From: Chrysomallon squamiferum
Taxonomy: Eukaryota; Animalia; Mollusca
Assembly (NCBI GenBank): GCA_012295275.1
Contig: CM022671.1
Span: 30,690,001-30,754,000, forward strand
Length of the DNA: 64,000 bases
Reading direction: 5' to 3'
Part shown: positions 9,559 through 52,127 of the stretch, in pieces
Numbering within the stretch: the stretch's first letter is position 1
Layout: every line of letters starts with the position of its first letter
The notes under the pieces: model-generated
Told to the model about the DNA's origin: nothing
Database searches by the model: none
Seen by the model: only the letters and a program-made list of their open reading frames with translations
Program-made: the position numbers and the translations under genes

Positions 9559-9709
9559 ATTGTTAAAAAATGAAAACAACCTTCCCCTTGCACGTTTTTT
9601 AGCAAAGGGTGAAGGTTATTTGTTTTAAGGCGCTATTCGTGCGATTCCCATTGGTAATCAATAGTCGAACGGGAACAAAAAACAATATGAATGAATGAAT
9701 ATTTGTTTA

Positions 9710-9714
<5 letters not shown>
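9559..9714 (-). promoter_or_regulatory. 5'UTR/proximal promoter of the carboxypeptidase gene with CCAAT box
   Basis: CpG-containing region directly upstream of the ATG. Contains TTACCAATGGGA on the minus strand and is bounded by a (CT)n tract. Confidence 0.5.
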
Positions 9715-14196: not shown

Positions 14197-15589
14197 TCAT
14201 TTCACTTGAAATTCCAATAACGGAGAGAATCTTGCTTTTTCCTTATCGAGTTTTGCGTACAGTTTGGCCAAGCATGGCTTCGTTCCAGTTTGAACCAGTC
14301 CTTCCCATATGCTGTCGGCAATGACCTTGAAATGAAACCAGGCGTCGCCAATCAGAAGCGCTACGTCGGACGCCATTGGTGCTCGAACTCTGAAGGTCAC
14401 ACATGTGTTAAAGTCAAGGTCACCGGACATAGGCTCTAACAACGTACCATTAAACCAACGATGACAAGCACGTGGTAACGGTCTTCTATTTTTGGCTGGT
14501 TGTTTGCAGTCGATAAGGTACCTAAACAAACACTCGAAAGGGGCGCTGCCGTCTGTTTCCGGTGAGGTAATTTTAGCGCCGAATATCGCAAATACGTATT
14601 TCCCGACAAATGGACAGCGGACTAAGTAAGAAATGGAATTTTCATCTCGTTGTTTTACGAAAACGTATCTCTGAAAGTCTTCGTCTGTAGCACCAGATTC
14701 GTTGCCGTGGTAATGAAGTGAATGTGATAGTCTGATGTCTTGATGAAGCTGGAAGTTGAACACGAGGTCATCATGGCTGTAGGTGACCGCAGGGTCGATG
14801 TGCGTTTGGGGGAGCAAACCATAATTGCTCATGCTTGGTGTGGGGCCAAAGAATGAAACCTTCGGAAAGGGACTTTTCAGGTTTTCTTTCTTTTCTCTGC
14901 ATTTTATTTGAAAAGCACACGCGCTCTGTAACGAATCCGAACACCAACTGTCTTTAGCAAAAATAGAAAAGTAGTAGCGTCCTTTCTTCGGCGGCGCTAC
15001 AGTGAAAATAGCTTTGTGACCGATGATCCTCAGCATCACGCGACCTTCCAAACAAGGCGAGTTCGAATCCTTGTCTTTAGGCTCTAAGGTATAGCCGAAC
15101 CCGACAGGACTGGGTATTGTGACCTGGATCAGAATGACACCGTTTTCTGTCTGCTGTATGCAGTCGTAGTGCATCACAAATTTCAGTCCGTAATTGAAAA
15201 ACGGCGATTTGACGACAGGCAGATTAATAAATTCTGACAGCGTAACCGGACACTCTAGAAGCTGCCATGCCGGATCGTCAGGGAAGTGCTGATAGATGTG
15301 CTCCTCTGGATCCGTGATGAAATAAAATTCGTCGCATTCGTACGAAAAATGTCCGAAGTCGTCGCTGTCTCTCTTGGTTCGTTTGCTTCCGGCGAGGTCT
15401 GTTTTGTTTCGCGCGGATCCCGCCTTCACGTGTCGCGCACCCCAGTTGCAGTTGACAAAGCACCAAGAACCGTCAATGCTAACCGCAGTCCACGTGTTAC
15501 GAAAGCGTTCGTCTTCGAACTTCATTCCTGGTTTGTAGCCAGCGCCTTTCGAATAACCCTGGATAACCTCACAGTACAGTCCCGCGTAA
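14197..15589 (-). CDS. hillarin / ltd-1 / KY-like protein A, terminal exon 7 (transglutaminase-like domain + KY-type C-terminal beta domains)
   Basis: Acceptor CTTCAG|T. Encodes YAGLYCEVIQGYSKGAGYKPG...RNTWTAVSIDGSWCFVNCNWGARH...DEFYFITDPEEHIYQHFPDDPAWQLL...LPVVKSPFFNYGL. Stop TGA at 14199-14197. Confidence 0.93.
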
Positions 15590-17239
15590 CTGAAGAAAGG
15601 AAAGTAATTTTTTCATTAAATAAAATTGTTTATTTATGTATGTATGGATGTATGTATATATATATGTATGTATGTTTGTATGAATGCATGTATGTATATA
15701 TCAGTGTGTGTATAAGTGTGCATATGCATGTATAAGTTTATATATTAACGTATATGTACATATATATTTAATAAAGTAAAAATAAAGTAATAAATCATAA
15801 AACAATCACACAAACAAAGGCAATCTCTGTGAACTATAAATGTGCGGTACAAAGCTTAAAACTCGCTCGAATGTGTCAGTTTGAAATTAACTAGAACTGA
15901 ATAAAGAACAAATCAATTTCGTTTAATCTGGACTTTTCGACCATTTCTCGTTCTCCTCAAACTGGACACGATATAACGAGTCTCCAGAGAGGCATTTAGC
16001 GGTTTCCTGCCTGTTATTTGTTTTGCGGAAACGACACACACTAATTACAACAGAACATCGATAGAAGCGACAAGACCAACGCCAATTCGATGCAGAAACA
16101 AATCTTTAAACTGCATTCAGCGGAGACATATTCAACAGTTGTTAGCGGCCTTTATCGGTGACTCACACATCCGGACAACCGTTTCATCTTGCTGAACCAT
16201 CTTCGACCCGAAACTATTGATTACTTTTTTTAATTTTTTTTTATTTGTTTGTTGGAAAGCCTTTTAAGATTTATCATTGTTTGATATGCGTGTCGCTAGA
16301 CAAATTACTGAGAACAAAATAAAACTGCTGTGTTGTCTTACATTAATCAGTTTCGAACATAAGAGTTATGACAAGCCAATATAAACCTGACCCCGAGTCA
16401 AATAAATATTCATCTTTCTACAGTTTAGAATCAACGACTGGTAAAGAAATTCTATTAATGATGTTGGTATTCGGCTTGGTGATCTATAACTGGAAAAATT
16501 TATGTACTTCCTTTGATTTCTAATTTTGAAAACAGTTGTTCGTTTATTTTAGTTTTTACTGAAGATCAAACAAAAAATTAAAAATAAAACATTTTTAATT
16601 CATTACAGAATTTTTATCGAATTGCACTGTATTAGTAAAATTAAATAAAAAAAACAAAAACAGGAAAGCATCATTTTCACAAATGAATAGTTAATGAGCA
16701 CGACATTGTAACTGATAATTTAATTGATTTTCTGTTTTATAACAATATATGTGACACTGATAGGAAGGACTGATAATGTTGTATGAAGATGATTTTTTTG
16801 TATGTAAAATAGTTCGAGTTATCACGGTGCTCGAATATTCAAATGTCAAATATTTAGTGCAGTTCCAGTGTGCGGGTAATATACGTTTTATACTGCATGA
16901 AACACACTCTTGCGTATTTGGTAAACTTAGTATACAGAACGGAAGAGTGAAGAGCAGTTTTGTGTGTATCAGATAGAGATACTGTATGGATCTATGTATG
17001 AATGTACTAATGGGGGAGGGGACAGCGAGAGAGAGAGAGAGAGAGTATATACCCGAGTAACTTGTATACATGACTTACTGATGAAAGTAAAGACACGCAA
17101 AAGAGATTTAATTAGAAACTTTAATATTAACAGTGAAGGAGAGAGAAAGGTTACAAATTTAGAGAAAAAAGAAAATTAAAAAAAGTCAGTGTAAAGACAT
17201 AGAGAAAAAATGTAGGAAGAAAACAAAAGTGAAAAAGAC

Positions 17240-17328
<89 letters not shown>

Positions 17329-17535
17329 AAAAGCGGATATGAAAAAATATAGTAAAACAGTGAAAGATAGAAAGAAGAAAAAGACACTGATGCTGATAGA
17401 AAGAGAAGAATGCAGACAGAAAAACAGATGAGAGAAAGAAAGAAGTTATTTGTTTGTAATTTGTATAGACTACCATGTCAATCTCACAAAATGTTTTTTT
17501 TTAAAAACTAATCAATATTTAAAATGTCGTGTTAC

Positions 17536-17679
17536 CTGCAGAGTCTCTTGAAGAGATCGTGGTACGTTTCAGTGCCGTACTTGATGCCTCTCAGGAGACC
17601 CAGAGGAGACTCAGGATTCACCGACTCCTCCACGTCCAGCTTGTTCAAATCTGTCCATGTGACCCAACGAAAAATGCTC
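17536..17679 (-). CDS. hillarin/ltd-1-like protein A, exon 6
   Basis: Encodes RSIFRWVTWTDLNKLDVEESVNPESPLGLLRGIKYGTETYHDLFKRLCS. AG/GT boundaries, phase 2-2, 144 nt. Confidence 0.92.
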
Positions 17680-17921
17680 CTGCAATACAGTACAGTCAGA
17701 TTAGAAAACGATGTCACAGTTTAAGCGCAGTGTAAAGCAAGACTGACTGTTTAACCGGTGTAACAGAAGAAAAGCTCAAACTGACAAAAATCACGAAAGA
17801 CTCCTTGTAAAATAAAAGCCATGTTTCTGAATCAGCGATTAAAATTTCTAAGGAGGCCAGCTTTTAAAATAAATATACAAAATGTAATAAAAATGTAACT
17901 AGATGTATAAAAGTGAAATTT

Positions 17922-17965
<44 letters not shown>

Positions 17966-18084
17966 GTTACCCCGTCTACCAAATTCTGTTTTCAACTGAT
18001 TAAAGTAAAACAAATACAAAACAATATAAAAAATGATTAAAAAAGTAACATGATAGATGCCCATAAAATGAGACAAATTATTAC

Positions 18085-18167
18085 CTAGCCTTTTCCAAGT
18101 CAGTTTCACAGTCCATTATCAAATCTTTCACTAGTTCAGTAAACGTTGTGTAGCCTTTTAAAATTAC
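18085..18167 (-). CDS. hillarin/ltd-1-like protein A, exon 5
   Basis: Encodes VILKGYTTFTELVKDLIMDCETDLEKAR. 83 nt, the same length and phase as the paralog exon at 63618-63700. Confidence 0.88.
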
Positions 18168-18189
18168 CTGAAATACATAAATAAATATA

Positions 18190-18232
<43 letters not shown>

Positions 18233-18756
18233 AACGACAGAGATAGAAAGAAAAATAATAATTAAATAAGTAAGTAGTCTATAATTAAAGACAGATAGAA
18301 AGATAAGTACACAAATAAATAAATAAACACCTATAAAAATATGGTGTAATTACATTAACAACAAATTTGACCACCATAACTGAGTAACAACACATCGTGA
18401 CATACAACATATAATTATGACATGTGACCATTTTACAGATGGATTCGTGACTGATTTTATTATTGTAATTACTACTTTGTAATGACATTAGAAAAAACGT
18501 TAGGGAAAATAGTTCCGTTTCTCCACCCGATGACGTCATCACTGCCATAGGCAAATGGCGGCTTTCAGATTTGTTTTTATCATTTTCTGTTATATATACT
18601 TTGCAGTTAAATAAGACTGTACAACAAGACAAACAAAATGTAAAAAGCAACCTAGAAAATAAAACAGACAATAATGATTTCTTCGTATCACGTAAAGATT
18701 GACTGTAACACACAGAGAATCCTGACGTGTAAAATGTACCGCGGTAACATACTCAC

Positions 18757-18897
18757 ACAGAACACGTGATTGTCAATCCGCTCAAACACAGAGGGGCTTT
18801 TGAACAGCTGATACTTCTTGAATTCGGGCGGGGTCACTGGTGGCGGTCGGGACAGATCGACTGAGGACGATCTGTCTGATTCTGGAGTGCTTTGACC
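18757..18897 (-). CDS. hillarin/ltd-1-like protein A, exon 4
   Basis: Encodes GQSTPESDRSSSVDLSRPPPVTPPEFKKYQLFKSPSVFERIDNHVFC. TTTTCAG acceptor, GTGAGT donor, 141 nt, phase 0-0. Confidence 0.88.
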
Positions 18898-19440
18898 CTG
18901 AAAAGAAAAGGGGAAAAAAAAAAAAAAAATAAATCATTTGTGTGTACAGTTTGGTTTCATTTGGAATCTAGTACATACATTTTTACATTGTCCTCAGAGA
19001 GCTCGATTTTCTTAAAATTAAGTTGAAATTAAATCGAAAAATTACTGTCAAATTTCATTGTTGTTCTTATTCTTGTGTGTGTTTTATACTTTCTTATTTT
19101 GTCAAATGTATAAGAAATATAGCTTTTACATTTTTATTGTAATTACCTGGGACTCCTTTTTGTCTAATACCCAACTTAGTTTAGAATAATGAATTATAGA
19201 GCTTCGTAATGGGGATTGTACCTTTGAAATGGACTCTTTAATTCTCAAAATCATATGACCTTCTGAGAAAAAGCCTATCTTTTTAAACTAAATGTTTAAA
19301 TAGTTTTGCTACTTCAATAACACGAAAATAAATTAAATAAAAATACAAAACATATTTAACAAGGATTCCTGATAAAAACAGCTTTCTGTTACGTGCAATT
19401 ACATTACAGGCAGATCGATCGACTGGTATTCGGAACTTAC

Positions 19441-19824
19441 GTCATTCGTGGAAAGACGTTCAGCTATCATGAGCAGCATTTCCTGGCTGTGCTTCTCGAT
19501 CATCCGGGCAACTTGCTGCTTTTCTTCCGTGGTAAGTCTCTCCATCAGCTTTCGCACCTTCTCTTCCCTCTTTCTTTTATAGTGTTCTTCCAACTTCTCT
19601 GTTTCTCTGGCGACTCCATTCTTGCCCTTTTGAGGGGAGAATCTTTCCAGCGTGGACACGAGTTCTTTCACCGATTTTTCTTTTTCTTTTTGTAGTTCCT
19701 CGTCCAGCTTCTTAAGTTTTCGTTCCCTTTCTTCCATGATGTGCTGATACAGCTGATCCTCTTCAACCTTTTGTATTTTTTCCAGTTCCGACTGAGCATC
19801 AAAGACACCCAATTTCTCGTAATC
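19441..19824 (-). CDS. hillarin/ltd-1-like protein A, exon 3 (E/K-rich coiled coil)
   Basis: Encodes DYEKLGVFDAQSELEKIQKVEED...KHSQEMLLMIAERLSTND. CCAG acceptor, GTAAGT donor, 384 nt, phase 0-0. Confidence 0.88.
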
Positions 19825-19833
19825 CTGGACAAG

Positions 19834-19875
<42 letters not shown>

Positions 19876-20054
19876 CTAGTATGTATATGTTAGAACACTG
19901 TGCCCTGGACAAAAAATCACAATGACATAAATATACAGGCTGCAGTCAAACGTAAACACCCCGATATAAATCTTTTACTTTTTTCATCTAACGTATGTAT
20001 GTATGTACATATATACTTATCTGCTTTACATAAATAGCTATCTACATACGTACG

Positions 20055-20094
<40 letters not shown>

Positions 20095-20837
20095 CTTATA
20101 TACACACATATCCCTATATTCGCACATACATACATACCTACGTACGTAGGTACATACATAAATACATATTAAATATACTGATTAAGCAGATGTTAAAATT
20201 ATTTTTCTCTTTTCACGAAATGGAATTTTAAATATTTCAGCTTCTTTTAACTCTAACGAAGACCGGAAAGCTTAAACAGGTTTTTAAACCACGACAAGAT
20301 ATCTTAAACGGTTCCGCCTACTTTAACATTACACGCTCTAATATATATATAAAAAAAAAAAACAAAAAAAAAAAACAAACAACTAATGTATGAGAACCAG
20401 TCACTAAAATTTAACCCGTTTTACAAGAAAATACCTTTAACAACTCACAGAAAATTCACATAATTTCTCTTTCTTCTGAAAGACCGTTATGTGGAAGTTA
20501 TATTTAACGAACAAACAGAGGACTGAACAATCGACAAGCCAAGTCGTGCTTACCTACTCAAACATGCGCGACAGATTATTATTTACAGCTTTTTAAACTG
20601 TGGATCCGGTGAAAGGCGAGGACGAAGGAAAAGTGGAAAATAATATTTCGCGATTAGGCTCACGGTGTTCGTCTGAACACACCTCGATAGAGAAAAACAT
20701 TAACGCGATTGTGTCACTACCGGTTTCCACTGGTCTTGATGTCTTCGTAACACGCGACAGAAAACATTCTCACACATCCACTGCTTCGAATGTAAACACA
20801 GGCAGGGAATTCAGGGCAAAAACAGTTTTAAGTAACA

Positions 20838-20869
<32 letters not shown>

Positions 20870-21080
20870 AGCAATAATAAAGATAATGATAATGATAATA
20901 AGGATGATATAAATAATGATAATGATAATAAAGAAACATATTAATATAGATTACAATACTGTTGATGATAGTGATAATGATAATAATCATGATGATGTTG
21001 ATGATGATGATCATATTCATACTATTTTCGTCAGTCGTTGACGAACATTAACTGAAGTATTAATTAAGTATTGTAGCTAA

Positions 21081-21123
<43 letters not shown>

Positions 21124-22066
21124 CGAGACCTAACAGAACAATTCTCCAATCCTCGAACATATCTCTAAACTGCACGTGAACAATACCCCCCCAAACCCCC
21201 ACAAAACAATAACAATCCTGCACTTTCCCACAACGATTAAAAACTAACGAAATGAAATCAGTCGAGGACAAAACGTTTCAAAAAAACGAAAACGTAAAAC
21301 TAAGCCACAAACAATGACCTACCTTGCCCAGACAACAGACACGTTTTAAAAACACAAGCAGATTTCCTCAGCAAACCTTGCAGGCAGTAAAACGCAAATT
21401 ATTATATTTTTAAAACAGAATGTAAACACAAACGTCGGAGACAATCTACTTTAAACTGTTAGGTGTTGACTCACCCTAGACTGGCTACCTGTCCTTTTCA
21501 TGTATATATATATATATATTTTTTTTTTTCAGTGAAATAAAAGTGAAAGGATATTTCTGTTTAAGCGAAGGAATAGATTTTTTTTTTTTTTTGTACACTA
21601 CATTAGTATAAATGTTTACATTTGTGCATGCATATATTCGTGTGTTATACATTAAAACACATATGATTAGAGTATGCAATACGTAAGTATGTGTGTATAT
21701 CTGTGTTTATATATATTTATATACTCTAAACATGCACACAAACATATTCTCACACATACGTACATACTGATATATGCAGACGTTATGTATATACACAAGC
21801 CGCAGCTTTATAACTTGCATCATGCCAGAATAATTTCAAGATATTTTAACAAACGTACATCTACATATATACATAATTGTATGTCAGTATGTCCTCACAG
21901 TATATATACATGCATGCATACACGTCGACATATTGACAGAGCTATCCAAGTACACTTTACCAACGCTTCTGTGAATTCCGTTGTCAAGTCGTGTTCGATA
22001 TTAAAAGAAACGGACAACAGTTAAGTCAAGATTATAAATTATTAAAAAAGAAAATGTCGGTGTCAC

Positions 22067-22183
22067 CTCATATGTTCCTGTTGATGTTTTCTGCTTTCCT
22101 CGCATGAAGATTTCTCTGTAGTGCGCGAACTCGAGTGCATTGGCGTCATACTGCCAGCCTGGGTTGTACACACTTCCACGAGT
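22067..22183 (-). CDS. hillarin/ltd-1-like protein A, exon 2
   Basis: Encodes TRGSVYNPGWQYDANALEFAHYREIFMRGKQKTSTGTYE. TCTTTCAG acceptor, GAG|GTGAC donor, 117 nt, phase 0-0. Confidence 0.82.
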
Positions 22184-22186
22184 CTG

Positions 22187-22575
22187 AAAGACAAAATAAT
22201 TCCACATGTTAACTCAAAGATAAAATAATTCCACATATTAACTCAGAGATAAAATAAATCCACATACTATTAACTCAGAGACATAATAAATCCACATATT
22301 AACTCAAAGGCATAACAAATCCACATATTGACTCAAAGATAAAATAATTCCACATATTAAAACAAAGATAAAATAATCGACATATTGACTCAAAGATAAA
22401 ATAATTCGACATATTAACTCAGAGATAAAATAAATCCATTAATTAACTCAAAGACAAAATAAATCTACATCTTAATTCAAAGTTAAAATAAATTCACATA
22501 TTAACTCAAACTTGAAACAAATCCACATATTAACTCAAAGATAAAATAAATCCACATAATTGACTCAAAGATAAT
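22187..22575. repeat. 29-bp minisatellite (~13 copies) abutting the exon 2 acceptor
   Basis: Unit aaagataaaataattccacatattaactc repeated with few variants. Confidence 0.92.
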
Positions 22576-23323
22576 AATTTTTATTTTTATTTTTATTTTT
22601 TTTTTTTTTTTTTTTTTTTTATGTGACGTTTCCTAGATACAAACGTAAAACAATCCCTAATAGACTGAGTATAATGCAGCTTGTTTTCCCCATACGTAAT
22701 AATTTGCTCTATAATGAGTTTTGTAATGATCCATAAAAGAGAAAACTCGACACCACTGCATTGTCAGTTACTGTTTCAGTGTATTATTATCATTTCTACA
22801 CCACCAACACCATTCGTGTTACTGTTATTATTATTACCATTCTATTTATTTATTTATTGGTTTTATTTAAAATGTTTTAAGATGCGCTTTCCCGTAAACA
22901 CCAAAATTCACACCACGGAGAACGGATCTCACAACCATCCGCTCCGCATCCCTATACGAGACCTCGGAGTTACAGCGAGTGTATGAACACGAAATATAAC
23001 GTTAGACAGTCAGTTTTCACTGTTCATAAAGCACAGGAGTGAACGAGTGGGCTTCTTTGACCTTAATTCTGATTCAGATTTTACAAAATCCTTTGGTCCA
23101 GTCTAAGCCTCGAACACGTTGCAATACAAACACTTGCATGATAATGTACAGCGAGCGTGTATAAATTAATCACAATATAATCACTTGTGAGAAAACAGGA
23201 TTATATTGTTAGATATCACGCCGACCTGGATATAAGTGTATTGTAAAGAAGAAGTTATTTTATTATATACAAACAAGCACATATGTGTGTGTGTATGTGT
23301 GTGTATATGTGAGTCTCTCTCTG

Positions 23324-23358
<35 letters not shown>

Positions 23359-24000
23359 GTGTCTATGTTTGCATAGAAATTACGTGTGGGTACGTACGCA
23401 TAATAGCCTACATGCTTGCATTAATCGATTAATACAAACACCAAATCAGTATTTATTTAACATCATTTTAACACATTTGCAGTTGAAGTGAAGAATCGAT
23501 ATGATAATTAAAACAAAAACAAAATTTAAACTTTGCTAAAATTGAAATATTGCAACACTAAACATACGAAACGAAGCAAAGCCTATGTATAGCCGAGTTC
23601 CATCAAATATTTATACTTGTTTAACTTAGGTACTATCTCTCTTTTCTCACGTAAAATCTCGTTCAGTGTGAATAAGCAACGATTAAACAATAAACAGGAG
23701 ACGATTATCAAAGAAAATAATAAAAAAAATAAAACACTTTGAGTAAATATTAAATTATTCATCCAAAACGATGTCGATATTTACGTGGTAAAGGTTCTTT
23801 GGTACTCTGTGTTTAGAAATCAACAAACACATAATATTAACACACTCAGATTGAAACCGTGGGATCGATACTCGCATTCTTTTTTCTTCAGTGAAAATAA
23901 TCTGACAAGTACGATGACAGGTATTAATGGAAAGGCTTCAGTTTTGTCGTAGATGCAAAAACTTTCGTCATCAAGTTTGACGATTTGAGTCTGCACGTTT

Positions 24001-24270
24001 GATAAATTTGAGCGATGCCAAATAGAAGAAGATAATGATGAAAAAAAATATGAAGAAAGAATACACATAAAAAAAATTAAAAAATAATAATAATAATTTT
24101 TAAAATGATGATAAAAATGATGATAATAGTATTATTATGGTTATTAGTTGTAGAGATGGTATTGATGTTAGCAGCAATAATGGTAGTAGTATAATAATAA
24201 TAATAGGAGAGGTAGTTATTTTATACAGGCAATATCAGCAGGAAAACATTTCAGTGTAAGTAAGTTAGTG

Positions 24271-24308
<38 letters not shown>

Positions 24309-24741
24309 TAAATAAATAAATAACTGAATACTTTATTAAATACATTTTGAAAATGAGACAAAATAAATTAATTAAAAATTAAATTAAAAGAAAAGTAAAA
24401 GTAAAAGGTTTTAAAAAAACAAAGGAAAGAAAAAAATGGAAACTAAGAAAAAGTTCATACATTAATCATCAAATGCATTAACAATTTTTTTTATCCGCGT
24501 AAGTTCTTCCGCGTGATTCACGCGTTGTGAGGAATTAGCCGGAACTGGTTCGCACTGTAGTAATCCCAGCGGAAGACGAACGGAATTCGACTGCTCGTTT
24601 TGTAAAATATTGTGATAGGTATCGTCTCACGATCCTGCAATTCTGAGATTGTTAGAGAACTGTCATTTGAAACGAAACGCTTGCATGTCATTTGTCATAG
24701 ATACTTTAGAACGATGGATTGGTAAAGGTCAAAGGGTCGCG

Positions 24742-24782
<41 letters not shown>
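24001..24782 (+). repeat. long inverted repeat, left arm
   Basis: Reverse complement of ~32860-33704. The core ggaattagccggaactggttcgcactgtagtaatcccagcggaagacgaacggaattcgactgctcgttttgtaaaatattgtg is identical in both arms. Confidence 0.92.
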
Positions 24783-24784
<2 letters not shown>

Positions 24785-25055
24785 ATGATTAAACAAATAT
24801 TAATTCATTCATATTGTTTTTGTTCCCGTTCGTCTATTGATTACCAATGGGAATCGCACGAATAGCGCCCTAAAACAAATAACCTTCACCCTATGCTAAA
24901 AAACGTGCAAGGGGAAGGTTGTTTTCATTTTTTAACAATATGGCGAAAACGTCGGATGTAAATAAACTTTTCCTAGTGTTTATCATAATAACTACATCGT
25001 ATATTCACATTTTAGGAAGACCAAATGACCGGACGGCCCGCTAAGTTGACACGAG
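24785..25055 (+). pseudogene. inverted copy of the carboxypeptidase promoter + 5'UTR + first ~38 codons
   Basis: Reverse complement of 9443-9714 with 7 substitutions and 1 indel by manual alignment. ATG 24940 gives MAKTSDVNKLFLVFIIITTSYIHILGRPNDRTAR* (AAA>TAA at 25042-25044). Confidence 0.95.
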
Positions 25056-26282
25056 AGAATCTCAGAGACAGAGACAAAAATAGACATGAATAGAAACAAG
25101 AACAGGAGTATAACAACGACAGAGACCGAAAGAGAGACACTCAATTAAACATTCAGCGAAAAAAACAGAAAAGAAAGAGACAGAGACAGCAAGAGAAATA
25201 TATAGAGAAGCAAAAATTATTTTAAAATAAAACTAGCTATAATAAAAAAGTGCCGATTGTAATTTTATATTAAGCTGTGTAAGTTCAACACGTGTTGAAT
25301 ACTTCTGTCTAATTTAACAGACGCTGAGGTTAAATCACCGGTTCCAAGATTGGCAATAATAATTATTATTATCTAAGACTGGCAAGTGTAGCAATCGTAT
25401 CTCAGTGTAAACTCCCTCTTTTCTGTAACTAATCATCAAATACATTGACAGTAATTTGATCAGAAATCCCTTGATTGTGAATCCATAACATTCTTGCCTT
25501 AACTAAAGATGAACGTTCCATTAAATACATTACTAACTTCAAGTATAATGCCCGAACATGTCGACTGAAGGTTTTTTAGTTTTGTTCTTGTTGGATAAAA
25601 AATTTCATGTCATTTGTTACAACTACTAAGAGCTATAAGATTCAGAATGGTAAAGGTCAAAAAGGCAAGAAAAAGAATAAAAATTGTAATCGATAGTTGT
25701 GTTTTTATCGTTTCCTCTCTATCAACAATTAAAATTTAATAAATTGGGTTTTGTGAATATTTCGTAGTTTAAATCAAGGATGAATGAATGAAGGTTAACA
25801 ATACCTCAACGTTCTAATATTTAAAATTGTAAATTAATATAAGTGCACTCCACAGAAGGACAAAAATATTTACGTTAGTAAATATCTTTATTTGTGGGGA
25901 ATCAGTATCAGAATAGCTGATCCAAATGCGCATCTTAAATTGAGGCAAATTAGTAAATTATTGAACGCTACTGGATCAATGTATAATTACACACAGATAC
26001 ATACATGAATACGCTTCAAAGGTCGGATTTCATTATTAATCAGATGTGGTTAATAAGGCAAGCGATCACCCGTGGCAACCGAAACAGACATAGAAAAGAG
26101 TTAAAGCTAAATTAAGCGAAGGATGAAAAATCCAGCGATCCATGACTTTGTAGATATTCAAACGAATTCAGTAACATTTCATTGCTTTTAGCACTCAGTC
26201 ATTTGATAATCTACGGCTTTTTGTTTCAGTTATTTAATCTCTTTAAACAGGCAGGATTAATATTAAATATATCTGTCCTTCG

Positions 26283-26317
<35 letters not shown>

Positions 26318-26330
26318 CATCCATCCATCC

Positions 26331-26398
<68 letters not shown>

Positions 26399-26485
26399 GT
26401 CTGTCTATCTATCTATCTATCTATCTTCTATCTATATATTTATTTATCTATCTGTCTATTCATCCATCCATCCATCCATCCATCC

Positions 26486-26558
<73 letters not shown>

Positions 26559-26690
26559 CCTATTTATCTATCCCTTTATATATCTATATCTCTGTCTCTC
26601 TGTCTGTCTTTCTGTATATCTATCTTTCCATCTGTCCGTCTATCTATCTATTTATCTATCTGTCCGTCTATCTATTTATCTATCTGTCTG
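26283..26690. repeat. (TATC)n/(CATC)n compound microsatellite
   Basis: Long tetranucleotide arrays. Confidence 0.9.
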
Positions 26691-27024
26691 ATATCTGTCT
26701 CTGTCCGTCCGTCCGCGATTCCTTCCGTGCGTCCGTCCCTTAATCCATCCATGCATTATTTTAAATATGATTCATATTACGTGTTAACGTAATCATGTTT
26801 ATAAATATGTATGTATGTACGTATTTATGGCGATAGATCGACAGATACACAAATCAAGTGACGCATAATAAAAAATCAAATATTCACCGTGTACAGCCGA
26901 GCACTCTCACAGCACAACAACTGACAAGTCAACACAACACACGTTTGTTATCTCTAAATCTGCGACGTTTTGCTCCCGGCGGCCATTAAATTAATTATAC
27001 GTAATTGTTTGTCATCCTTCGACA

Positions 27025-27060
27025 CGCCACGCCCCCACGGGCGGGCTATAAAAGGAGCGC
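27025..27060 (+). promoter_or_regulatory. Pol II core promoter: Sp/KLF GC boxes + TATA box
   Basis: GCCACGCCCCC and GGGCGGG immediately followed by TATAAAAG (27047-27054) in a CpG-rich island. Confidence 0.6.
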
Positions 27061-27079
27061 GGGTCTCCCGGTGTAAACT

Positions 27080-29866
27080 GGCATGAAAACAAAGTCTATT
27101 TTTTTTTTTATAAACTCCACACAACGCGTTGTAAAGCAGCGTGCAATCCCACGACTGAAACTATCGATGAAAAACCGGAGACAAGTATCTGCAGATGGAT
27201 GACAATGAATGACAGACTCGCGACTTGCACTTGAAACCAACGACACGAAACAGCAGATGAGTAATAGCGGATGTTATACGTGGTAGGTAAAGTCGATATC
27301 GACCAGGCCTGAGTTGTTTGTGTAAACCTTTTGTATATTTAGATATACCAGGGATATCAATGAAAGATGTCGATATCTGGTATCGATCTTGTAAGTAAGA
27401 TTCATTCGATTTGTCATTTGAAAAACGAAATGACGTCGATATTGGACAATTCTGAATAAAACAGAGCTGATGCGTTAAATTAATTTGGTAAATTAGTTCG
27501 AAGCTATTCCATATATATATAAATATGTTTAGTATAATCATTGTATAGTTATGTACAGAAAGACAAACAGACACGCACACTTATATACATACACTTTCTC
27601 TCTCGTTCCTTCTCATACACCACTCTCGTTCCTTCTCATACACCACTCTCGTTCTCTCACTCAAATAAAAACAAACAAAACATATAAAAATAAATAATAA
27701 CTAAAGCCCCACAAAAAACAAAACAAATAACGACGTCAACAATAAAATAACAATAATAAAAAAATAAAAGACATTAAATTTATGAATGAAAATTCTACAA
27801 GTGAATTAACGTTGGTTTAATCAAATACGAATTACCGTTATTAAAACACATTTATTTATTTACATGCTGGGAACATCACATTAAATTTTCAACATCACAT
27901 TCAGTTATTTCATTATTCATTCAAACCTTCGGTCTGCAATTCAACAAGCAGTCAGACCACAAAAACACAACCAGCGACATTACCAGAATAACATTAGTCA
28001 CTGCACTGGCTTAATTTCCAGACATAATCCCGTGGTTTGCAAACCACGACATGACACTGGATGAAAAGACTTGAATGTTTTAAGATCAATGGATTAGCGA
28101 AACAGCTGCCTTGGTTTGATAACGCAGATATTACACATGTATGTCATGCCCGCAGCAAACCAATACAACGTTTTCTTCATCTCCGAGACGCTACAGATCG
28201 CAGATCGTTCACATTTGACTCAGCTAATACTGAAACCTTCAGCGACATCACGATTCCATCACTAACTGATGCTGTCTTGGGAGAAATCGAGATTGGAGAC
28301 ACAAAACGTATGATACACTATTATTATAATGTTTTACGCCATTTTACCACAGAGAGCATGTAGCATGTCAATATCTCTGACCTTACCATACTTTAAGCAA
28401 TGTATCATTTTTACAAGATACTTTACCATACAGTATGAAAAAATGTTTTAATATTATAATCAAAACCCATCATGAAGTATTTTCCTTATTATTAGCTACT
28501 GATTATATTCCATGATACACTAATTATCATGAGACATTTACCATTATCATATGCAACGTTTCAGTATTATACTCAAAACAGCCATGCAGTATGTCATTAT
28601 AATTAGCTACTGAACATTACTCCATGAAATATTTCATTATGAAAACCCCCACAAAAAACCTCTTTACAATACTGGATGCAGTATTTCATTATTTTAATCG
28701 ACCTTCTAGGCTCCATGCAATGTGTCATAATTATTGCTTCTAACACTTCGCATTGTTTCATAATTATAGGCCATCATATCAGACGTCGTATTATAAATTT
28801 TATAAAATATTATGTGTAAAATCTGCACATGGTTTTTAAAAGCACATTATCATTTATATCTGTAAAACAATGCACTTCAGTACTGCAATAAAGCTAGTTT
28901 AAATGCAGTCGATATCTACATGATAATTTAGGTAAAAGAGAAATTAAAGAAAAAAACGGTGGATCTAAACTAGCTGAAATTAGTACTCATGACTGATATT
29001 TTAACCTTAGAATTGTCTAGATTGATTCTGAACATTAGCTTGGAATACATTTTAAATTTTAAAATATATCTGAAGCCATGGCTGTAGAAATTTCAAGCTC
29101 AATTGTATAGAACAAGTTTTATGTATATTATTGTACAGTATCGATTTAAAAATACAAGATAGAAATATTTGTTGTTTGTTTAAAGTGATTTGCTCAGAAA
29201 ATCAGTTGCGTGAACGATATAAGTCATTCATTCTTGATTATATTCTGTAAGTAGATAATGTCCATTACTGATAAATAAGAGGAGAGATTAAAAAAACGGA
29301 AAGAAAGAAACCAAAATACGGGATGCAAAAAAAAAAAAAAAAAAAAACGTTTTAAACGAAGAAAAAAAGACTGGGAAATTAAAAAAAAAAAAAAAAAAAA
29401 ACCTTCATCATATTGTGTCATGCTGTTGTTGCCTCATTTTTCTTCATTTCTGGCGGGTTTTTTCTACTCATTTTTTTTAAAAGCGAAATTTAAAACTACA
29501 AACAGATGTTCATAAAGCGAAGTCTTCTTCGTTCAGCATCGAGTTCGTCTGCCATCCGACGTCTCATTAACGGGAACGTGGCAGAATTTCAAAATGAACG
29601 ACCTCCCCATTAACATAAATAACAGACATGGATACCCCGAACATGTAATCGACAGAAGCTTCTCTCCGAAGGAGTGAAATTAAATGAACCTGAGGGTAAA
29701 ATTTGGGGAAGAAAAGATCAAAGAAAACTAAATAGAGTAATCCGCAAGGATTTCAATTATTTGTATCAATTGGATAGCCAGTCTCGCAGAGCCGTTGTTG
29801 TGGTTGCTGTTTACGGGGATGCTAATGGTATTCTTTTCAGTTCTGATGATGTCATCTGCCGTCTGA
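27080..29866 (+). pseudogene. candidate nested antisense gene/pseudogene of unknown family (3 exon-like blocks)
   Basis: ATG 27271 with donor AG|GTAAAG (27286) joins TTTCCAG| (28022) in frame: MLYVV-DIIPWFANHDMT. A second PWFDNADIT motif lies 79 nt later in a shifted frame. Donor C|GTATGA at 28307, acceptor TTCGTTCAG| at 29537, hydrophobic tail frame ending at 29866. Confidence 0.33.
28310..28765. repeat. degenerate ~40-bp tandem repeat
   Basis: Recurrent catgcagtatgtcattataattagctactga-like units. Confidence 0.55.
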
Positions 29867-29929
29867 GAGAGAAATTTGTCAAGACATTACGGCTGTCGCA
29901 GATGACGTGTAGTTAACTGCAGTGATAAC

Positions 29930-30785
29930 GATAATGCTCAGTGATGCCATGTGTTTCTTGAGTCATGAATATCCGAGTTGTTTGATTCGGTAATAACCGT
30001 AATTCTCCGTGATGCCCCTGTTCTTCAACATGCACGTATAAGGTCTTGTTTCTGAGTTGTTTGATTCAGTAATAACCATAATTCTTTGTGATGTTTTGAT
30101 TCAGTAATAACCATAATTCTTTGTGATATTTTAATAAGTAATAACCATAATGTTTTTTGGTGATCTTTTGATCGAGTAATAACTAAAGTTCTTTGTGATG
30201 CCCTGTCCTTCAACATACATGTATACCATCCTATTTATCTTGTATGTGATTCAGTAATAAGATCAAGCCTAATGATGTCCTGTATCTCCAGAGAGACTTT
30301 TAACGTTATTTTTCTGAGATGTTTCATTCAGTAAGAGTCAAAACTCTCAATATTGTCCTTTTCTTCCACACACATGCATAACGTATATTAATGATTCAAT
30401 AATAAGCCATGTACCTCATGGTGTTCTATAATTCAAAGACATGTATAACGTTCTATGATTCATTAATAATCTAAAGCCAAATGATGTCCGGTACTTCCAG
30501 AGACAGGTATAACGACATTTTCGTGAAGTATATGATTCAGTAATAACATAAAACTTTATGATGACCGGTCTTTCCAGAAATACGTATTTAACGTCTTATC
30601 TTTGAGGTGTTTGTTTCAGTAATAATTGTAATACTTTACGATGTCCTTTTCGTCCAGAGATACGTATACCGGCCCGTTTCTGAGCTATTTACTTCAATAA
30701 TAACATAACACTTTATGATGACAGGCCCTTCCAGAGACATGCAAAAATCCTATATCTCAGCTATCTGATTCCAAATAACAGTAAT
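29930..30785. repeat. degenerate ~78-bp minisatellite with ~35-bp sub-units
   Basis: Core TGATTCAGTAATAAC recurs about 14 times, followed by gatgtcc...ttccagagac...tataacg. Confidence 0.85.
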
Positions 30786-32696
30786 CTCAATGCCAATTTT
30801 TCCTTGACAGGGTTTAAGAGATACCCCGTCGTCCATAGACTATCATATTTGACTTAGGAATTAAACAGTACTATTTTCTGAATTAAGCGACCATATCATC
30901 AACATGATAATAATCATCATGATCTAACTATCATAACAGTAACAGAAACTACTTCTACAACTACAGCTACAACAGTGGTACAACTTCTAGTCTTTCAATC
31001 ATAATTACTATCATGCTTACAATAGCAACAACGACAAATACTACTACTACTACTGCAGCTGCTATTATAATGTATAATAATATTATTGATAATGATGATC
31101 TCATTGATGACTGAGATGATGCTGATGACAACAATAATAATAATAATAATCATAATAATAATAATGATGATGATGATGATGATGATGATAATAATAATAC
31201 GATTATTTTTTATTAATGCGTTCGGATACTTTTTCAAACGCAGATTCTTGTTCTAGGCATCCTATGAAGCGTGTAATTATATGATAACATCTGAATATGA
31301 TTCTAGCACACAAATATGACATTAATGTATCTTTTACACCCTTTTATCTAGCTTTGAGTTTCAGTGCATTAGTAATCTTGCAGCTTATTGCGATATGCCT
31401 GCTGGAACTCAGGCGTTCACAAAATACATAAAATACAATAGTATACGAAAAAAAAAAAATTACAAGTTATTTGTTACATACCGCTTTTATTACAAACAGC
31501 ACGAAGCCATGCAGTATAATGTAGTTTACGTATGGAATCAAAAACCTTGCTTCAAGCTATTTTATCAGTTAAAAATATCTCATTACGTATAATGGATTAT
31601 ACAGAGTTTATCACTAGTAGCAAGACCGAATGCTAAGTATTTTTGTTTGATTTAGTTTAAATGACCTTTTTTTTTTTTTTTTTTTTTCAGAATTGGATAG
31701 TTAAATATAACATTAAAAAAGTATTAGACTTTAGTGTAGGTAAGGATATTTCAGACAGATTTTAAGTCTTCATATATTTTTCGTGGTATTAAGGCTATGT
31801 GAAGACAGAGATTTATACAGATCCGCTGGTGATTCCACACCTCAAAATGCGTACTATGACAATTTTCTGTTCTTTACCAAATAACAAGTTCTTTAAAAAC
31901 ACCATCACCACCACCAACAAAACAACTTCAACAGAAACAAAAACAAAAGCAACAAATAATCCAACAAAAACAATAACAACAAAAACAAAAACAACAAATA
32001 ATCCAACAAATAATCCAACAAAAACAACAACAAAAGCAAACAAACAGAACAGACAATAACAACAGTAAAATGCAATGATTAATCAATATTAATTTCAGTT
32101 TTAAATTTAATTCGGTGATTCTAACTAATCAGTCTGAATAAGCTGGCTGTTGACTATGGATTTTGCTGTAACAAGATGGCGTGTTGGCTCATGCTGCTAA
32201 TAACATGAACTAAATAAATCATTGCATGAATCCCCAGTTCCCAAATATAGATGATTAAATTTCGATAAACCATTAGGATCATGGTAATCCCAGTGGCTTT
32301 GGATTTTCAATGAGTCGAAACCAATTATGAACTAATCTAAATCTCTGTGGCTGTCTTCACCTCAGAACTTTATGTTTTTCACTTTCTTTATCAGAACCAT
32401 TATCGTTTTTTCCCTCTCTTCTTTCATCTCTGTCTTCTGGTTGTCTGTTATCATACTCTTTCTGTCAATATCCAAGTCTGTACTCTCACTACAAGTTTAT
32501 ATATATGTCTATCCATTCCTCGTGTCTTTGTTTTCTTTCTGAAACTCTCTTTTACCATAGTTCTTTCATACTTTCTAAATTTTTCTTTTTTACTCTTTTT
32601 ATCTGTTCATGTGATGCTTTATCTTTCGTTTTTTCTGGTCATCTACATGTCCATCTTTCTGCCTATCTTTGTCCTTGCTGTAGTTTCCATTCTTCT

Positions 32697-32776
<80 letters not shown>

Positions 32777-32845
32777 CTCCTTTTCCTTCTTTTTATTCTT
32801 TCATTCTGTCTGTCTTCTCTCTTTATGACTTTATCTACCTATCTA

Positions 32846-32859
<14 letters not shown>

Positions 32860-32879
<20 letters not shown>

Positions 32880-32882
32880 GTC

Positions 32883-32928
<46 letters not shown>

Positions 32929-33704
32929 AAATAATGCGACCCATCGTTCCAAGTATCTGTGACGAATGTCATGCAAGCGTTTTGTTTCAAATGACAGTTC
33001 TCTAACAATCTCAGAATTCCAGGATCTTGAGACGATACCTTCCACAATATTTTACAAAACGAGCAGTCGAATTCCGTTCGTCTTCCGCTGGGATTACTAC
33101 AGTGCGAACCAGTTCCGGCTAATTCCTCACAACGCGTGAATCATGCGGAAGAACTTACGCGATGAAAAAAACAAACAATAGTTAATGCATTTGATGATTA
33201 ATGTATGAACTTTTTACCTTTTTTTTTCTTTTTTTTTTAACGTTTTAATTTTCCTTTTCCATTTTTTCTTCTGATTTTTCTTTCACTTTTGAATATGTAT
33301 TTAATAAAGTATTTATTTATTTACTTACTTACCTATTGATTTCTTTATTTATTTATATTGTAATTTTTTCCTGCTGATACTACCGTTATAAAATAACTAT
33401 TTTTATTATTATTATTATTAATAATACTACTACCACAACTACTACCTCTCCTACTATTATGAATTATACTACCAGTATTGCTCCTAACACCACTACTACC
33501 TCTACAACTAATAACCATAATAATACTAACATCATCATCATTATCGTCATTTTTATAATCATTATTTTCATCTTCATAATCATCAGAATATTCATTTTCT
33601 TTTCATCAATATTTTTTCTTCTTTCTTTTTTCACATTTTTCTTTCTTTCATTCTTTCTTTCTTTCATTCATCATCATCTTCTATTGGCGTCGCTCTATTT
33701 TATC
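32860..33704 (-). repeat. long inverted repeat, right arm
   Basis: Reverse-complement match to 24001-24782, from the (CT)n/gcgaccc end to ctattggcgtcgctc...tatc. Confidence 0.92.
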
Positions 33705-34744
33705 GTCACTGTGTATGTTCCAGTAGCATAAGCTTTCGATCGTGATAATTTGATCCCATTCAAACGTCCCTCAACTAATAACTGAGTGGTTTGCATGCTG
33801 TGATTTTACAAGCATCAGGCAAGTAAGTAATTGAAGATTCTTTTCTGAGAATCTCGGGAAGTCATCAGACTCTTCTTGTTACCGCTGGTAATGCACTTCC
33901 TAAAACCTATCCGAGCAGTAATGACGCATATTGCTGTTTCTGTGTAAATATCGAAATATTACATTAAAAACGTCGACGCCGAATTGACTTCTGCAGGTCC
34001 CCAGTGAATACAAGCAAGATTTATGTAGAACAACCATCATCAACGTCGGATCCATCATCTCAATTTATTTATTAAGAAAGCTCATCTTTGAAAGCTCTTG
34101 CAGATTGTGTCCTCGTAAGCCAAGTTGATGCGACATTACACTAACGTTGAAACGGACCGTGTTTCGGCTGCATCTACTTTTTCATTCGTAACATATCATG
34201 GTCACAAGTGGAGTGATTTGTAACTTGTTAAGAAGAAGAAGAAAAAGAAGAAGAAGAAAGAACGAAAGAAAGAAAGAAATGAGACTCAGCACATATTAAC
34301 GATATTTTTTTGTAGCCTTTTTTTTTTTTTTTTTTTTATTTCATTTATTACGGTGTTTGTTAGATTTTTGGTCTTTAACGAGCAAGTGTTTGTGTGGCAT
34401 TATTTATTTATAATCCGTAAAACAAAGTGGCAGACATATATTAAGCTTAGCAGACACTTAGGTACTTACACATTTGCCTATCCCTCTGTATGTCTATCCA
34501 CGTAGTATGTAATCAATGTCTGAATTTAAAAAAATAATAATAATAATAAAAAGAGAAAAAAAATTGAATAATGAGATAGAAAAAAGGATGAAAAGAAAAT
34601 ATTTCCTGCAATTTATCGTAGTCCTGGAAACAGCCGTTAAAAAAAATTATATATTAATAAAAAAAAAAAAAAAATTGTTTGGGTTAAGAATATTGGACCA
34701 TTTGTCTAATAGCCAGAAATTAATAAATTAATTTCAATAACCTG

Positions 34745-34983
34745 TTTTTTTTCGTTTCTCTTTTCACTTAGACTAAAACCGATGCCGAATTCTTGCCTGA
34801 CTCCGCCTGTAATAAACTTAACGTAAGCACCGTCTTAATGTTTATTGGCGTCTTTTCATAACCAAAGCCATGACTCAACTTTCATTTCGTGGTGGTCTAA
34901 AAACCTCACTTAGTGTCGAGTACGCAGATGGGTTCTGCCCGGTGAAGCGGAATCAGAATCGTTTTAGTTTCCAGAATTCGACT
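34745..34983 (+). repeat. diverged direct repeat copy 1 (AP-1 site TGACTCA 34871-34877)
   Basis: Collinear similarity to 35695-35944: gactaaaac, tcttgc.tgactc, tggcgtctttt.ataacca, ccatgactca, cgtggtggtc, gaagcgga. Confidence 0.8.
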
Positions 34984-35083
34984 CTGTTAAGTAATAGCTG
35001 CTGATGCTAACAGACACAGAAAGAGAGAGAGTGAACGGTGTTCTGTTCAAGCACCGAGTGAGTTACTGGGTGGTAGCATGTAT

Positions 35084-35171
<88 letters not shown>

Positions 35172-35694
35172 GAGGAGAAAGAAAGAAAGTCAGAGAGAGA
35201 GGAATGTGCTGGAGGAAAGACAGAGGAACACACAGAAAAAAGAAATAAAACAACAGATAGTGGAAGCATGCGAGAAAGAGTGCGGGACAGACACAGACTG
35301 ATAAACAGACACAAAGACAGCTGGACAGACAGACAGACAGACATACAGATAGACAAAAAGAAAAAGAGAGATGGGGCAGTCCCATAAATCAAACTGCACA
35401 CCACTTTAATAACTAATATCAGATACATACTTAATATGTAGGTAAATATTTTAAAATTAAAAGGAAACATCAATAAATAGAATCATTAAATTATCCATAA
35501 AAGTGTCGTTTTATTCGTCTAATAACAATTTTCTTTTACTAATCGAATCACTTTCGTCATAAAGAAGATCACATTTAGATAGAAAAATTGAATTAATTAT
35601 TATCAATTATCAGCTGCATTACAAAATTCCTTTCAATTATTTTGCTATAAAAACAAAATTGTTGTTGGTTTTTTTTTTTTTTTTATTATTATTT

Positions 35695-35944
35695 TTTTTT
35701 TTCGATTCTCTTTTTCACGCGGACTAAAACAAATGCCAACCTCTTGCGTGACTCTGCCAGCATTAATCTGAACATAAACTTGATCGTCGTGGTTACTGGC
35801 GTCTTTTGATAACCAGATCCATGACTCAGCTTTCCATTCCGTGGTGGTCCGCAGTCCCTCTCGGTGAGCGAGCTGCGGCGAGGGTCTGGTTTGACGAAGC
35901 GGAGAATGCGAGATCGCGTTCGTTTCGGTTTCACAGAATCACTT
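35695..35944 (+). repeat. diverged direct repeat copy 2 (AP-1 site TGACTCA 35822-35828)
   Basis: Collinear with copy 1 at 34745-34983. Confidence 0.8.
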
Positions 35945-40329: not shown

Positions 40330-40430
40330 AATGTCTCTTGCGGTGAACACAAACTGAAGTGGATTTCATCTGAAGAACTGGCAGAATTACCAAATGTTTG
40401 ACATCCAGTATCTGATGACTACAGATTAAC
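40330..40430 (+). mobile_element. decayed SINE 3' fragment
   Basis: ggatttcatctgaagaactggcagaattaccaaatgtttgacatccagtatctgatga resembles a gastropod SINE tail as recalled. A weaker related piece lies at ~42900-42965. Not search-verified. Confidence 0.4.
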
Positions 40431-44006: not shown

Positions 44007-44038
<32 letters not shown>

Positions 44039-46353: not shown

Positions 46354-46407
<54 letters not shown>

Positions 46408-47823: not shown

Positions 47824-47918
<95 letters not shown>

Positions 47919-48669: not shown

Positions 48670-48877
<208 letters not shown>

Positions 48878-49589: not shown

Positions 49590-49687
<98 letters not shown>

Positions 49688-50317: not shown

Positions 50318-50352
<35 letters not shown>

Positions 50353-51482: not shown

Positions 51483-51576
51483 AGACTATTTGGAGAATTT
51501 GTCAGCAGGTATGTTGACTCATACGCTAATAAAGAATTAAACTCTGATAGCCGATAAAAGCAGAAGAGCGACTTAC

Positions 51577-52126: not shown

Positions 52127-52127
<1 letters not shown>

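What the first reader, a model, noticed from the sequence alone, without database searches (positions are those of the whole stretch)
24746..25055. Young inverted copy of the neighbouring carboxypeptidase promoter, 5'UTR and signal peptide captured inside the hillarin intron
Seen: 24785-25055 is the reverse complement of 9443-9714, with 7 substitutions and 1 indel in ~271 nt by hand. It keeps the CCAAT box, the ATG and 34 codons that now end in a new TAA. Homology starts exactly at a (GA)n tract present in both loci and ends at gacacgag, running back into GA-rich DNA. It contains upstream DNA and no poly(A), so it is a DNA-level templated insertion rather than a retrocopy. Inference, three possible consequences: (a) the copy could be an antisense promoter inside the hillarin gene, making a 34-aa signal-peptide-only micropeptide; (b) the hillarin pre-mRNA/excised intron carries ~270 nt antisense to the carboxypeptidase 5' end and start codon, a possible built-in trans regulator; (c) the two copies are inverted repeats 15 kb apart that flank hillarin exons 2-7 and could mediate an inversion.
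Basis: partly seen in the sequence, partly recalled or inferred. Interest (0 to 1): 0.8.

Follow-up and report, generated by a model that had tools for sequence, protein, structure and literature searches.

The report
Microsatellite-primed promoter copy segregating in snails
In a mollusc, likely a snail, 270 bases from the start of a carboxypeptidase D gene lie copied backwards into a GA repeat inside the neighbouring gene's intron on some chromosomes but not on others, likely a DNA-repair scar and likely harmless, with no sign yet that the copy is active.

Summary
24785-25055 is the reverse complement of 9443-9714, with 7 substitutions and 1 indel. It carries the CCAAT box, 5'UTR and first 34 codons of carboxypeptidase D (CPD) and lies in the 31.5-kb first coding intron of a hillarin-like gene. 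It is not a misassembly: contigs from 3 of 5 DNA runs laid (two studies) bridge the right junction with no differences. Two of them also hold the empty allele, with (GA)n joined straight to 25053. So it is a segregating 270-bp insertion in a GA tract, with GA-tract homology at one end and 3-bp microhomology (GAG) at the other. That anatomy fits repeat-primed ectopic repair synthesis (DDSA/SDSA-like; inferred), a known kind of event. Six of the nine differences also occur in other runs' contigs, so the copy is probably younger than 2.6% suggests. None of the three proposed functions has support: the one RNA run laid shows only the source transcript. Side lead: 3 of 6 dispersed repeat pairs in the window end at GA tracts, hinting at a general process. 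The left junction was not bridged.

The parts
24746..24782 (+). Acceptor (GA)18 tract; in the empty allele it runs straight into 25053
   Evidence: TRF; GA loose end joined to 25053-25090 in X3 and X5
24783..25052 (+). Inserted 270-bp copy of CPD upstream DNA, 5'UTR and start of coding sequence
   Evidence: junction contigs and empty-allele contigs
25053..25055 (+). 3-bp microhomology GAG shared by the source (9445-9443) and the empty site
   Evidence: ends of both copies; empty-allele record aligns from 25053
24844..24848 (+). CCAAT motif (source 9654), about 65 nt upstream of where the CPD RNA contig begins
   Evidence: the RNA contig starts at copy-equivalent 24909 = source 9589
24940..25044 (+). 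34-codon ORF: hydrophobic signal-peptide-like N-terminus of CPD with L16I, ended by a new TAA
   Evidence: max Kyte-Doolittle 11-residue mean 2.6; no Pfam hit
25056..25250 (+). GA-rich right flank, present in both alleles
9443..9714 (-). Source: CPD promoter region, 5'UTR and first 38 codons
9714..9783 (-). Donor (GA)35 tract upstream of CPD (TC on the + strand)
8724..9558 (-). CPD coding exon 1 (M14 carboxypeptidase domain); exons 2 and 3 near 8054-7908 and 6242-6039
22184..53647 (-). First coding intron (31.5 kb, GT-AG) of the hillarin-like gene that hosts the insertion
   Evidence: tblastn with Haliotis hillarin; splice sites
14197..22183 (-). Hillarin-like coding exons 2-7, between the two inverted copies
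   Evidence: Pfam Ig-like_KY
24001..24745 (+). Older inverted repeat of 33704-32925 forming the left flank; also ends at a GA tract; core 92-99% identical

Best explanation
This is a segregating 270-bp insertion of the CPD gene's 5' end into a (GA)n tract of the hillarin intron, likely made in one germline repair event primed by the shared GA repeat, and likely neutral. Shown: the insertion allele and the empty allele both exist, the source is intact, one end is a GA tract common to both loci, the other end has 3 bp of microhomology, and there is no poly(A). Inferred steps: (1) a break or stalled fork in the GA tract at 24746-24782; (2) the GA-ending 3' strand paired with the opposite-facing (GA)35 tract 15 kb away and primed synthesis into the CPD promoter, which sets the inverted orientation; (3) after about 270 nt the strand came off and rejoined its own other end through GAG; (4) the two copy-specific changes within 14 nt of the junction, one of which makes the TAA, probably arose during that error-prone step; (5) the allele then drifted to appreciable frequency. 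This is the DDSA variant of synthesis-dependent strand annealing with a microhomology finish.
For: Right junction bridged by 31 or more letters on each side with 0 differences in X2 (record 25012-25145+), X3 and X5 (25012-25090): 3 of 4 runs, two studies. Empty allele in X3 (depth 20.3 vs 24.3 for the insertion) and X5 (53.5 vs 88.3), the pattern expected of heterozygotes. X6's contig stops one unaligned letter beyond 25053; X6 and X1 share right-flank letters (25577, 25579, 25582, +T at 25571) with X3's non-window allele. Copy-source divergence, 7/271 = 2.6%, does not differ from window-vs-X6 flank divergence, 22/1198 (Fisher p 0.47), or window-vs-X1, 11/857 (p 0.16). The copy's letters at 24783-4, 24802, 24893 and 24985 are on X1's contig that continues into the CPD coding sequence, and those at 24816 and 24833 are on X3's collapsed contig; only 24870, 25042 and 25047 were never seen on those collapsed or source paths. 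Two of 7 substitutions in the last 14 nt has p 0.047 (post hoc). DDSA is defined as repair of a break in a repeat using an ectopic copy of that repeat (PMC3276153, passages); template switches use 2-5 bp microhomology (PMC7407515, passages).
Against: The left junction was not bridged: the GA tract is longer than the contigs' word length and I did not lay it. X1 and X6 show neither a bridging record nor a clear empty-allele record, and X6 has no cover of the source either, so their genotypes are inferred from flank letters only. Collapsed contigs can be mosaics of source and copy, so 'segregating at the source' is likely, not proven; ectopic gene conversion could give the same pattern. X5's source depth (237) is 1.7 times the sum of its two alleles, so depths are rough. 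X3 and X5 may be one animal or the source of the assembly. The copy crosses no intron, so an RNA template cannot be excluded. Neutrality is a default, not a test.
Confidence: 0.72

Rival explanations
1. Same origin, but the copy is active: it rebuilds GA tract + CCAAT + start site and fires a + strand transcript antisense to hillarin (with a 34-aa peptide), or the hillarin intron RNA pairs with the CPD mRNA 5' end.
For: The CPD RNA contig begins at a place inside the copied part (source 9589), so the copy plausibly holds the start site. AATAAA lies at 25226 and 25241. The 147-nt antisense part would pair with CPD mRNA at about -252 kcal/mol, as any near-perfect complement would.
Against: The one RNA run laid (X9) has source letters only and no record across the junction. 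AATAAA occurs once per 238 nt in this window. The allele is absent from some chromosomes. Only about 155 nt upstream of the ATG were copied. Excised introns are short-lived (general knowledge).
Confidence: 0.1
2. The patch was copied from RNA (an upstream-started CPD transcript or hillarin read-through) by reverse transcription at a break, as proposed for class 2 templated sequence insertion polymorphisms.
For: No intron is crossed. Hillarin ends 4.5 kb upstream of the source on the same strand, so read-through RNA could cover it. PMC5110952 (passages) proposes RNA patches for class 2 insertions with microhomology and no poly(A).
Against: About 125 nt of the copy lie upstream of the RNA contig's start. 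The insert begins exactly where the donor's GA tract ends, inside another GA tract only 15 kb away, which points to homology-primed copying from nearby DNA.
Confidence: 0.08
3. The fragment was captured or carried by a mobile element (Helitron-like capture, or 3' transduction by a retroelement with a simple-repeat tail) of which the left-flank repeat is a member.
For: The left flank is a second repeat in the window that ends in (GA)n. RTE elements with SSR tails make one-sided microsatellite families (PMC2887409, passages).
Against: The empty allele has a GA run joined to the same right flank without the fragment. The source locus does not carry the left-flank repeat next to its GA tract. Only two exits from the shared sequence in X2, X3 and X5. 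No tRNA, no Rfam hit in the flank, no Pfam hit for its frames, no terminal inverted repeats among the pairs listed.
Confidence: 0.05
4. The pair matters as a substrate for a 15-kb inversion of hillarin exons 2-7.
For: Inverted repeats of about 310 bp including the GA tract, 97% alike, do flank those exons.
Against: The window is not inverted (exon order intact). The longest perfect run in the unique part is 91 nt. An inversion would sever hillarin. These contigs cannot show one, because a crossover inside the repeat leaves both right-hand junctions unchanged.
Confidence: 0.03
5. Assembly chimera through the GA tracts.
For: The left junction lies in a microsatellite and was not bridged.
Against: The unique right junction, with both copy-specific letters, is in short-read contigs of three runs from two studies; X2 also has a bubble with the copy's letters at 24870 and 24893.
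Confidence: 0.02

Closest known systems
Duplication-dependent strand annealing (DDSA), an ectopic variant of SDSA (Drosophila; Fiston-Lavier 2007 as described in PMC3276153 and PMC3420103)
   Same: Break in a repeat repaired from an ectopic copy of that repeat; repeat at one end of the duplicate; donor intact; intrachromosomal and close by.
   Different: The repeat here is a pure (GA)n microsatellite, not a transposon or longer module. The copy is 0.27 kb against a mean of 2-3 kb. No internal re-invasion marks were found.
Class 2 templated sequence insertion polymorphisms (TSIPs) in humans (PMC5110952)
   Same: Polymorphic insertion, donor intact, no poly(A), microhomology at a junction.
   Different: TSIP donors are described as distant and RNA-derived; here the donor is 15 kb away, includes upstream DNA and shares a long repeat with the target.
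MMBIR/FoSTeS template switching and polymerase-theta templated insertions (PMC7407515)
   Same: Short microhomology at the exit; inverted local copy; possible extra mutations near the junction (PMC4937565, abstract).
   Different: Theta insertions are usually tens of bases from the immediate flanks (recalled). One end here has long repeat homology, and only one switch out and back is seen.
Unilateral microsatellite repeat families (Lepidoptera, PMC2887409; similar reports in gastropods are recalled, not found)
   Same: Two microsatellite loci share one flank only.
   Different: There the shared flank is an RTE retroelement 3' end in many copies; here it is a host gene's promoter in two copies, with the empty allele still present.

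Membership tests
DDSA-type ectopic duplication | Repeat shared by donor and target at one end | tested here: met
   (GA)35 at 9714-9783 and (GA)18 at 24746-24782
DDSA-type ectopic duplication | Donor left intact, copy placed into a pre-existing site | tested here: met
   CPD exons intact; empty allele seen in X3 and X5
DDSA-type ectopic duplication | Re-invasion marks (short tandem repeats or microhomology-bounded gaps) inside the copy | tested here: inconclusive
   Only a 1-base indel in a T run; such marks are not expected in every event
DDSA-type ectopic duplication | Formed by break repair with strand invasion | not testable with these tools
   Inferred from junction anatomy
Class 2 TSIP | Polymorphic presence/absence | tested here: met
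Class 2 TSIP | No target-site duplication and no poly(A); microhomology at a junction | tested here: met
   No poly(A); GAG microhomology. A duplication made only of GA units cannot be excluded.
Class 2 TSIP | Donor in a distant genomic region | tested here: not met
   Donor 15 kb away in the same window
Class 2 TSIP | RNA-derived patch | tested here: inconclusive
   No intron crossed; about 125 nt lie upstream of the RNA contig start
Processed retrocopy / class 1 TSIP | Poly(A) tail and target-site duplication of 5 bp or more | tested here: not met
Transposon-captured gene fragment | Fragment inside a multi-copy element with element ends | tested here: not met
   Two exits only in three runs, single-locus depth in X3, empty allele present; no genome was held for a full search
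cis-natural antisense regulator / antisense promoter | Transcript from the copy, or a stable antisense RNA | tested here: inconclusive
   One unphased RNA contig set, source letters only

The most novel reading that the evidence does not exclude
In this microsatellite-rich mollusc genome, (GA)n tracts act as portable primers that copy their neighbours' unique flanks over 8-16 kb as a routine mutational process (three such inverted pairs in one 40-kb stretch). Here the process moved a working GA+CCAAT minimal promoter into a neighbouring gene, giving a natural presence/absence allele of an antisense promoter that changes hillarin or CPD output between animals.
Probability: 0.1. Interest if true: 0.65.

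Novelty: new member of a known kind. Interest (0 to 1): 0.3.

Why it matters
As it stands, a clean natural example with both alleles in hand: it shows a microsatellite-anchored templated insertion before and after, which is rarely possible for one-sided microsatellite flank families. If such copying proves common genome-wide, it would give a transposon-free explanation for shared microsatellite flanks and a route for promoters to move between neighbouring genes. Carriers and non-carriers also give a ready test of whether a 270-bp promoter copy is active. Without that evidence it is an ordinary small structural variant.

Tried and rejected
No whole genome is held, so copy number could be judged only from contig branching and depth. 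Rfam on 23500-34200 gave one sub-threshold mir-30 match at 24870-24935 (25.6 bits vs gathering 50.2, E 0.044), treated as chance. ARAGORN found no tRNA, so no tRNA-derived SINE head was detected for the left-flank repeat. An exact 42-nt pattern from that repeat's core found 0 stretches in metagenome contigs. Pfam found nothing in 4 frames of that repeat or in the 34-aa ORF. No 9-12-mer from the copy's last 26 nt occurs elsewhere in the window, so there is no sign of a second template for the two junction changes. Cryptic splice sites that the insert adds on the hillarin strand (acceptor-like AG at 24897; donor-like at 25008, 24889, 24844) were not scored against a model and are left as unsupported. 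Absence of cover in X1 (25056-25146), in X6 (copy and source) and in X9 (beyond 25055) proves nothing. Two look-ups of earlier findings returned nothing. Paper searches listed no paper on GA-primed promoter copying in molluscs, judged from listings only; the library lacks most subscription journals. PMC8082928 (passages) added nothing. No supplements were read.

Full report
Observation. Self-BLAST finds 9443-9753 against 25055-24746 at 96.8% over 311 nt, E 1e-145; with microsatellites masked the match is 271 nt at 97.0%, E 1e-126. Pairwise alignment gives exactly 7 substitutions and one missing base, plus an extra TT at 24783-24784. The copy keeps CCAAT (24844), the ATG (24940) and 34 codons, and the 25042 change makes the stop. 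The source is exon 1 of a carboxypeptidase D-like gene on the minus strand. The host is a hillarin-like LIM/KY-domain gene on the minus strand; its best hit is Haliotis at 74%, so the animal is a mollusc, likely a gastropod. The copy sits in the 31.5-kb intron between coding exons 1 and 2, and exons 2-7 lie between the two repeats.

Is it real? No genome was held, so I used public runs: 11 listed, 9 holding part of the stretch, from 3 studies. I laid 5 DNA or unclassified runs and 1 RNA run; all are contigs, not raw reads. In one search, 3 of 4 runs have a record that bridges the unique right junction with 0 differences: X2 (25012-25145 and beyond, depth 8.3; its CPD path 9), X3 (25012-25090, depth 24.3) and X5 (88.3). 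X2 is from a different study than X3 and X5, so at least one study is independent of the assembly's sample. X3 and X5 also have a record in which 18 letters of pure GA join directly to 25053-25090 (depths 20.3 and 53.5): the empty allele. X3's two alleles are at 54:46, as for a heterozygote. X2 shows no empty record among its 5 laid. X6's contig ends one unaligned letter beyond 25053. X1 has a hole at 25056-25146. Both share right-flank letters with X3's non-window allele, which suggests but does not show that they lack the insertion. In X2, X3 and X5 the shared sequence has only two exits (CPD and this junction), so it is not a dispersed family as far as contigs can tell. The left junction was not bridged.

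Anatomy and age. Comparing the alleles, the insert is 24783-25052 (270 bp), with the GA tract on the left and GAG (25053-25055) fitting both the source and the empty site on the right. There is no poly(A) and no unique target-site duplication. Copy-source divergence (2.6%) is not distinguishable from divergence between haplotypes in the flank (1.8% for X6, 1.3% for X1; Fisher p 0.47 and 0.16). X1's single contig that continues into the CPD coding sequence carries the copy's letters at 24783-4, 24802, 24893 and 24985. X3's collapsed contig carries them at 24783-4, 24802, 24816 and 24833. Only 24870, 25042 and 25047 were never seen on those paths. Collapsed contigs may be mosaics, so this is likely rather than proven, but it suggests copying from a CPD allele other than the window's and a true divergence near 1%. 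Two of the three remaining changes are within 14 nt of the junction (p 0.047, post hoc), in line with reports of raised variant density at breakpoints (PMC4937565, abstract and outline).

Mechanism (inferred). A break in the GA tract left a GA-ending strand that paired with the opposite-facing (GA)35 tract upstream of CPD, 15 kb away. It copied about 270 nt and returned through GAG. This matches DDSA, described as SDSA after a break in a repeat that uses an ectopic copy of that repeat (PMC3276153, passages; PMC3420103, one passage; the original 2007 paper was not read). The short-microhomology exit matches template switching (PMC7407515, passages). It resembles class 2 TSIPs (PMC5110952, passages) except that the donor is local. 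An RNA template cannot be excluded because no intron is crossed, but about 125 nt lie upstream of the RNA contig's start. Transposon capture is unlikely given the empty allele and the two-copy state.

Function. The single RNA run (X9) has a 5141-nt contig that starts at copy-equivalent 24909 (source 9589, 31 nt before the ATG), carries source letters and continues into CPD; no record crosses the copy's junction. A contig start is not a transcription start, but it fits a start about 65 nt downstream of CCAAT, so the copy may well hold the core promoter next to a GA tract. Nothing shows that it fires. The animal's genotype is unknown and contigs drop rare forms, so the test is weak in both directions. 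The downstream AATAAA sites are uninformative at one per 238 nt. The antisense and inversion ideas are geometrically possible and untested; an inversion would cut hillarin and is invisible to these contigs. Neutrality is the default.

Wider pattern. After masking microsatellites and dropping direct hits closer than 400 nt, six repeat pairs score above 75 bits (7 rows, two from one element). Four are inverted. Three end at a GA tract of 20 nt or more: this one; 24001-24782 with 33704-32880, which uses the same tract on its other side; and a 43-nt perfect match at 32780-32822 with 48754-48712. Two others end at A or T runs, and one is a decayed piece of CPD exon 2 at 10677-10753 with no tract. 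Only 0.8% of positions lie within 25 nt of such a GA tract. A naive binomial gives 7e-5, or 2e-3 after dropping one dependent pair. This is post hoc, masking tends to end hits at tracts, and the other pairs could be mobile-element remnants with simple-repeat tails (PMC2887409, passages). It is a lead for a genome-wide count, not a result.

Verdict. Real, young and polymorphic; a new member of a known kind of repair-derived templated insertion; function unshown. Interest 0.3. Searches listed no paper on GA-primed promoter copying in molluscs, within a library that lacks most subscription journals.

Noticed in passing
window 24001-24782 and 33704-32880: Older inverted repeat of about 780 bp, 8-9 kb apart in the same intron, both copies ending in (GA)n, with a 290-bp core 92-99% identical and degenerate low-complexity flanks; no Rfam, tRNA or Pfam match. 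Local duplicate, transposon remnant or converted pair; could form dsRNA within the hillarin pre-mRNA.
   Followed up: partly
window 32780-32822 and 48754-48712: 43-nt perfect inverted match 16 kb apart, each next to a long GA tract, with looser similarity further out: a candidate second young GA-anchored copy.
   Followed up: partly
window 10677-10753: 84% direct copy of part of CPD exon 2 (8001-8077), lying upstream of the CPD promoter: a second, older CPD fragment.
   Followed up: partly
window 11308-11440 and 13120-12971; 34745-34897 and 35695-35849: Two more local repeat pairs (inverted, about 80%; direct, 78%), ending at an A run and a T run.
   Followed up: partly
window 60387-63709 (minus strand): Last three coding exons of a second, tandem hillarin-like paralogue (77% to another Haliotis hillarin-like protein) directly upstream of the host gene.
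   Followed up: partly
window 8724-9558 and 14197-15591: Unusually long coding exons: CPD exon 1 encodes about 278 residues and the last hillarin exon about 464.
   Followed up: no
window 25056-26250: High haplotype diversity in the intron flank: 22 differences in 1198 nt to X6 and 11 in 857 to X1; at 25060 the empty allele of X3 and X5 appears to differ from both the window and X6.
   Followed up: partly
window 22184-22579: 29-bp minisatellite (13 copies) abutting the splice acceptor of hillarin coding exon 2.
   Followed up: no
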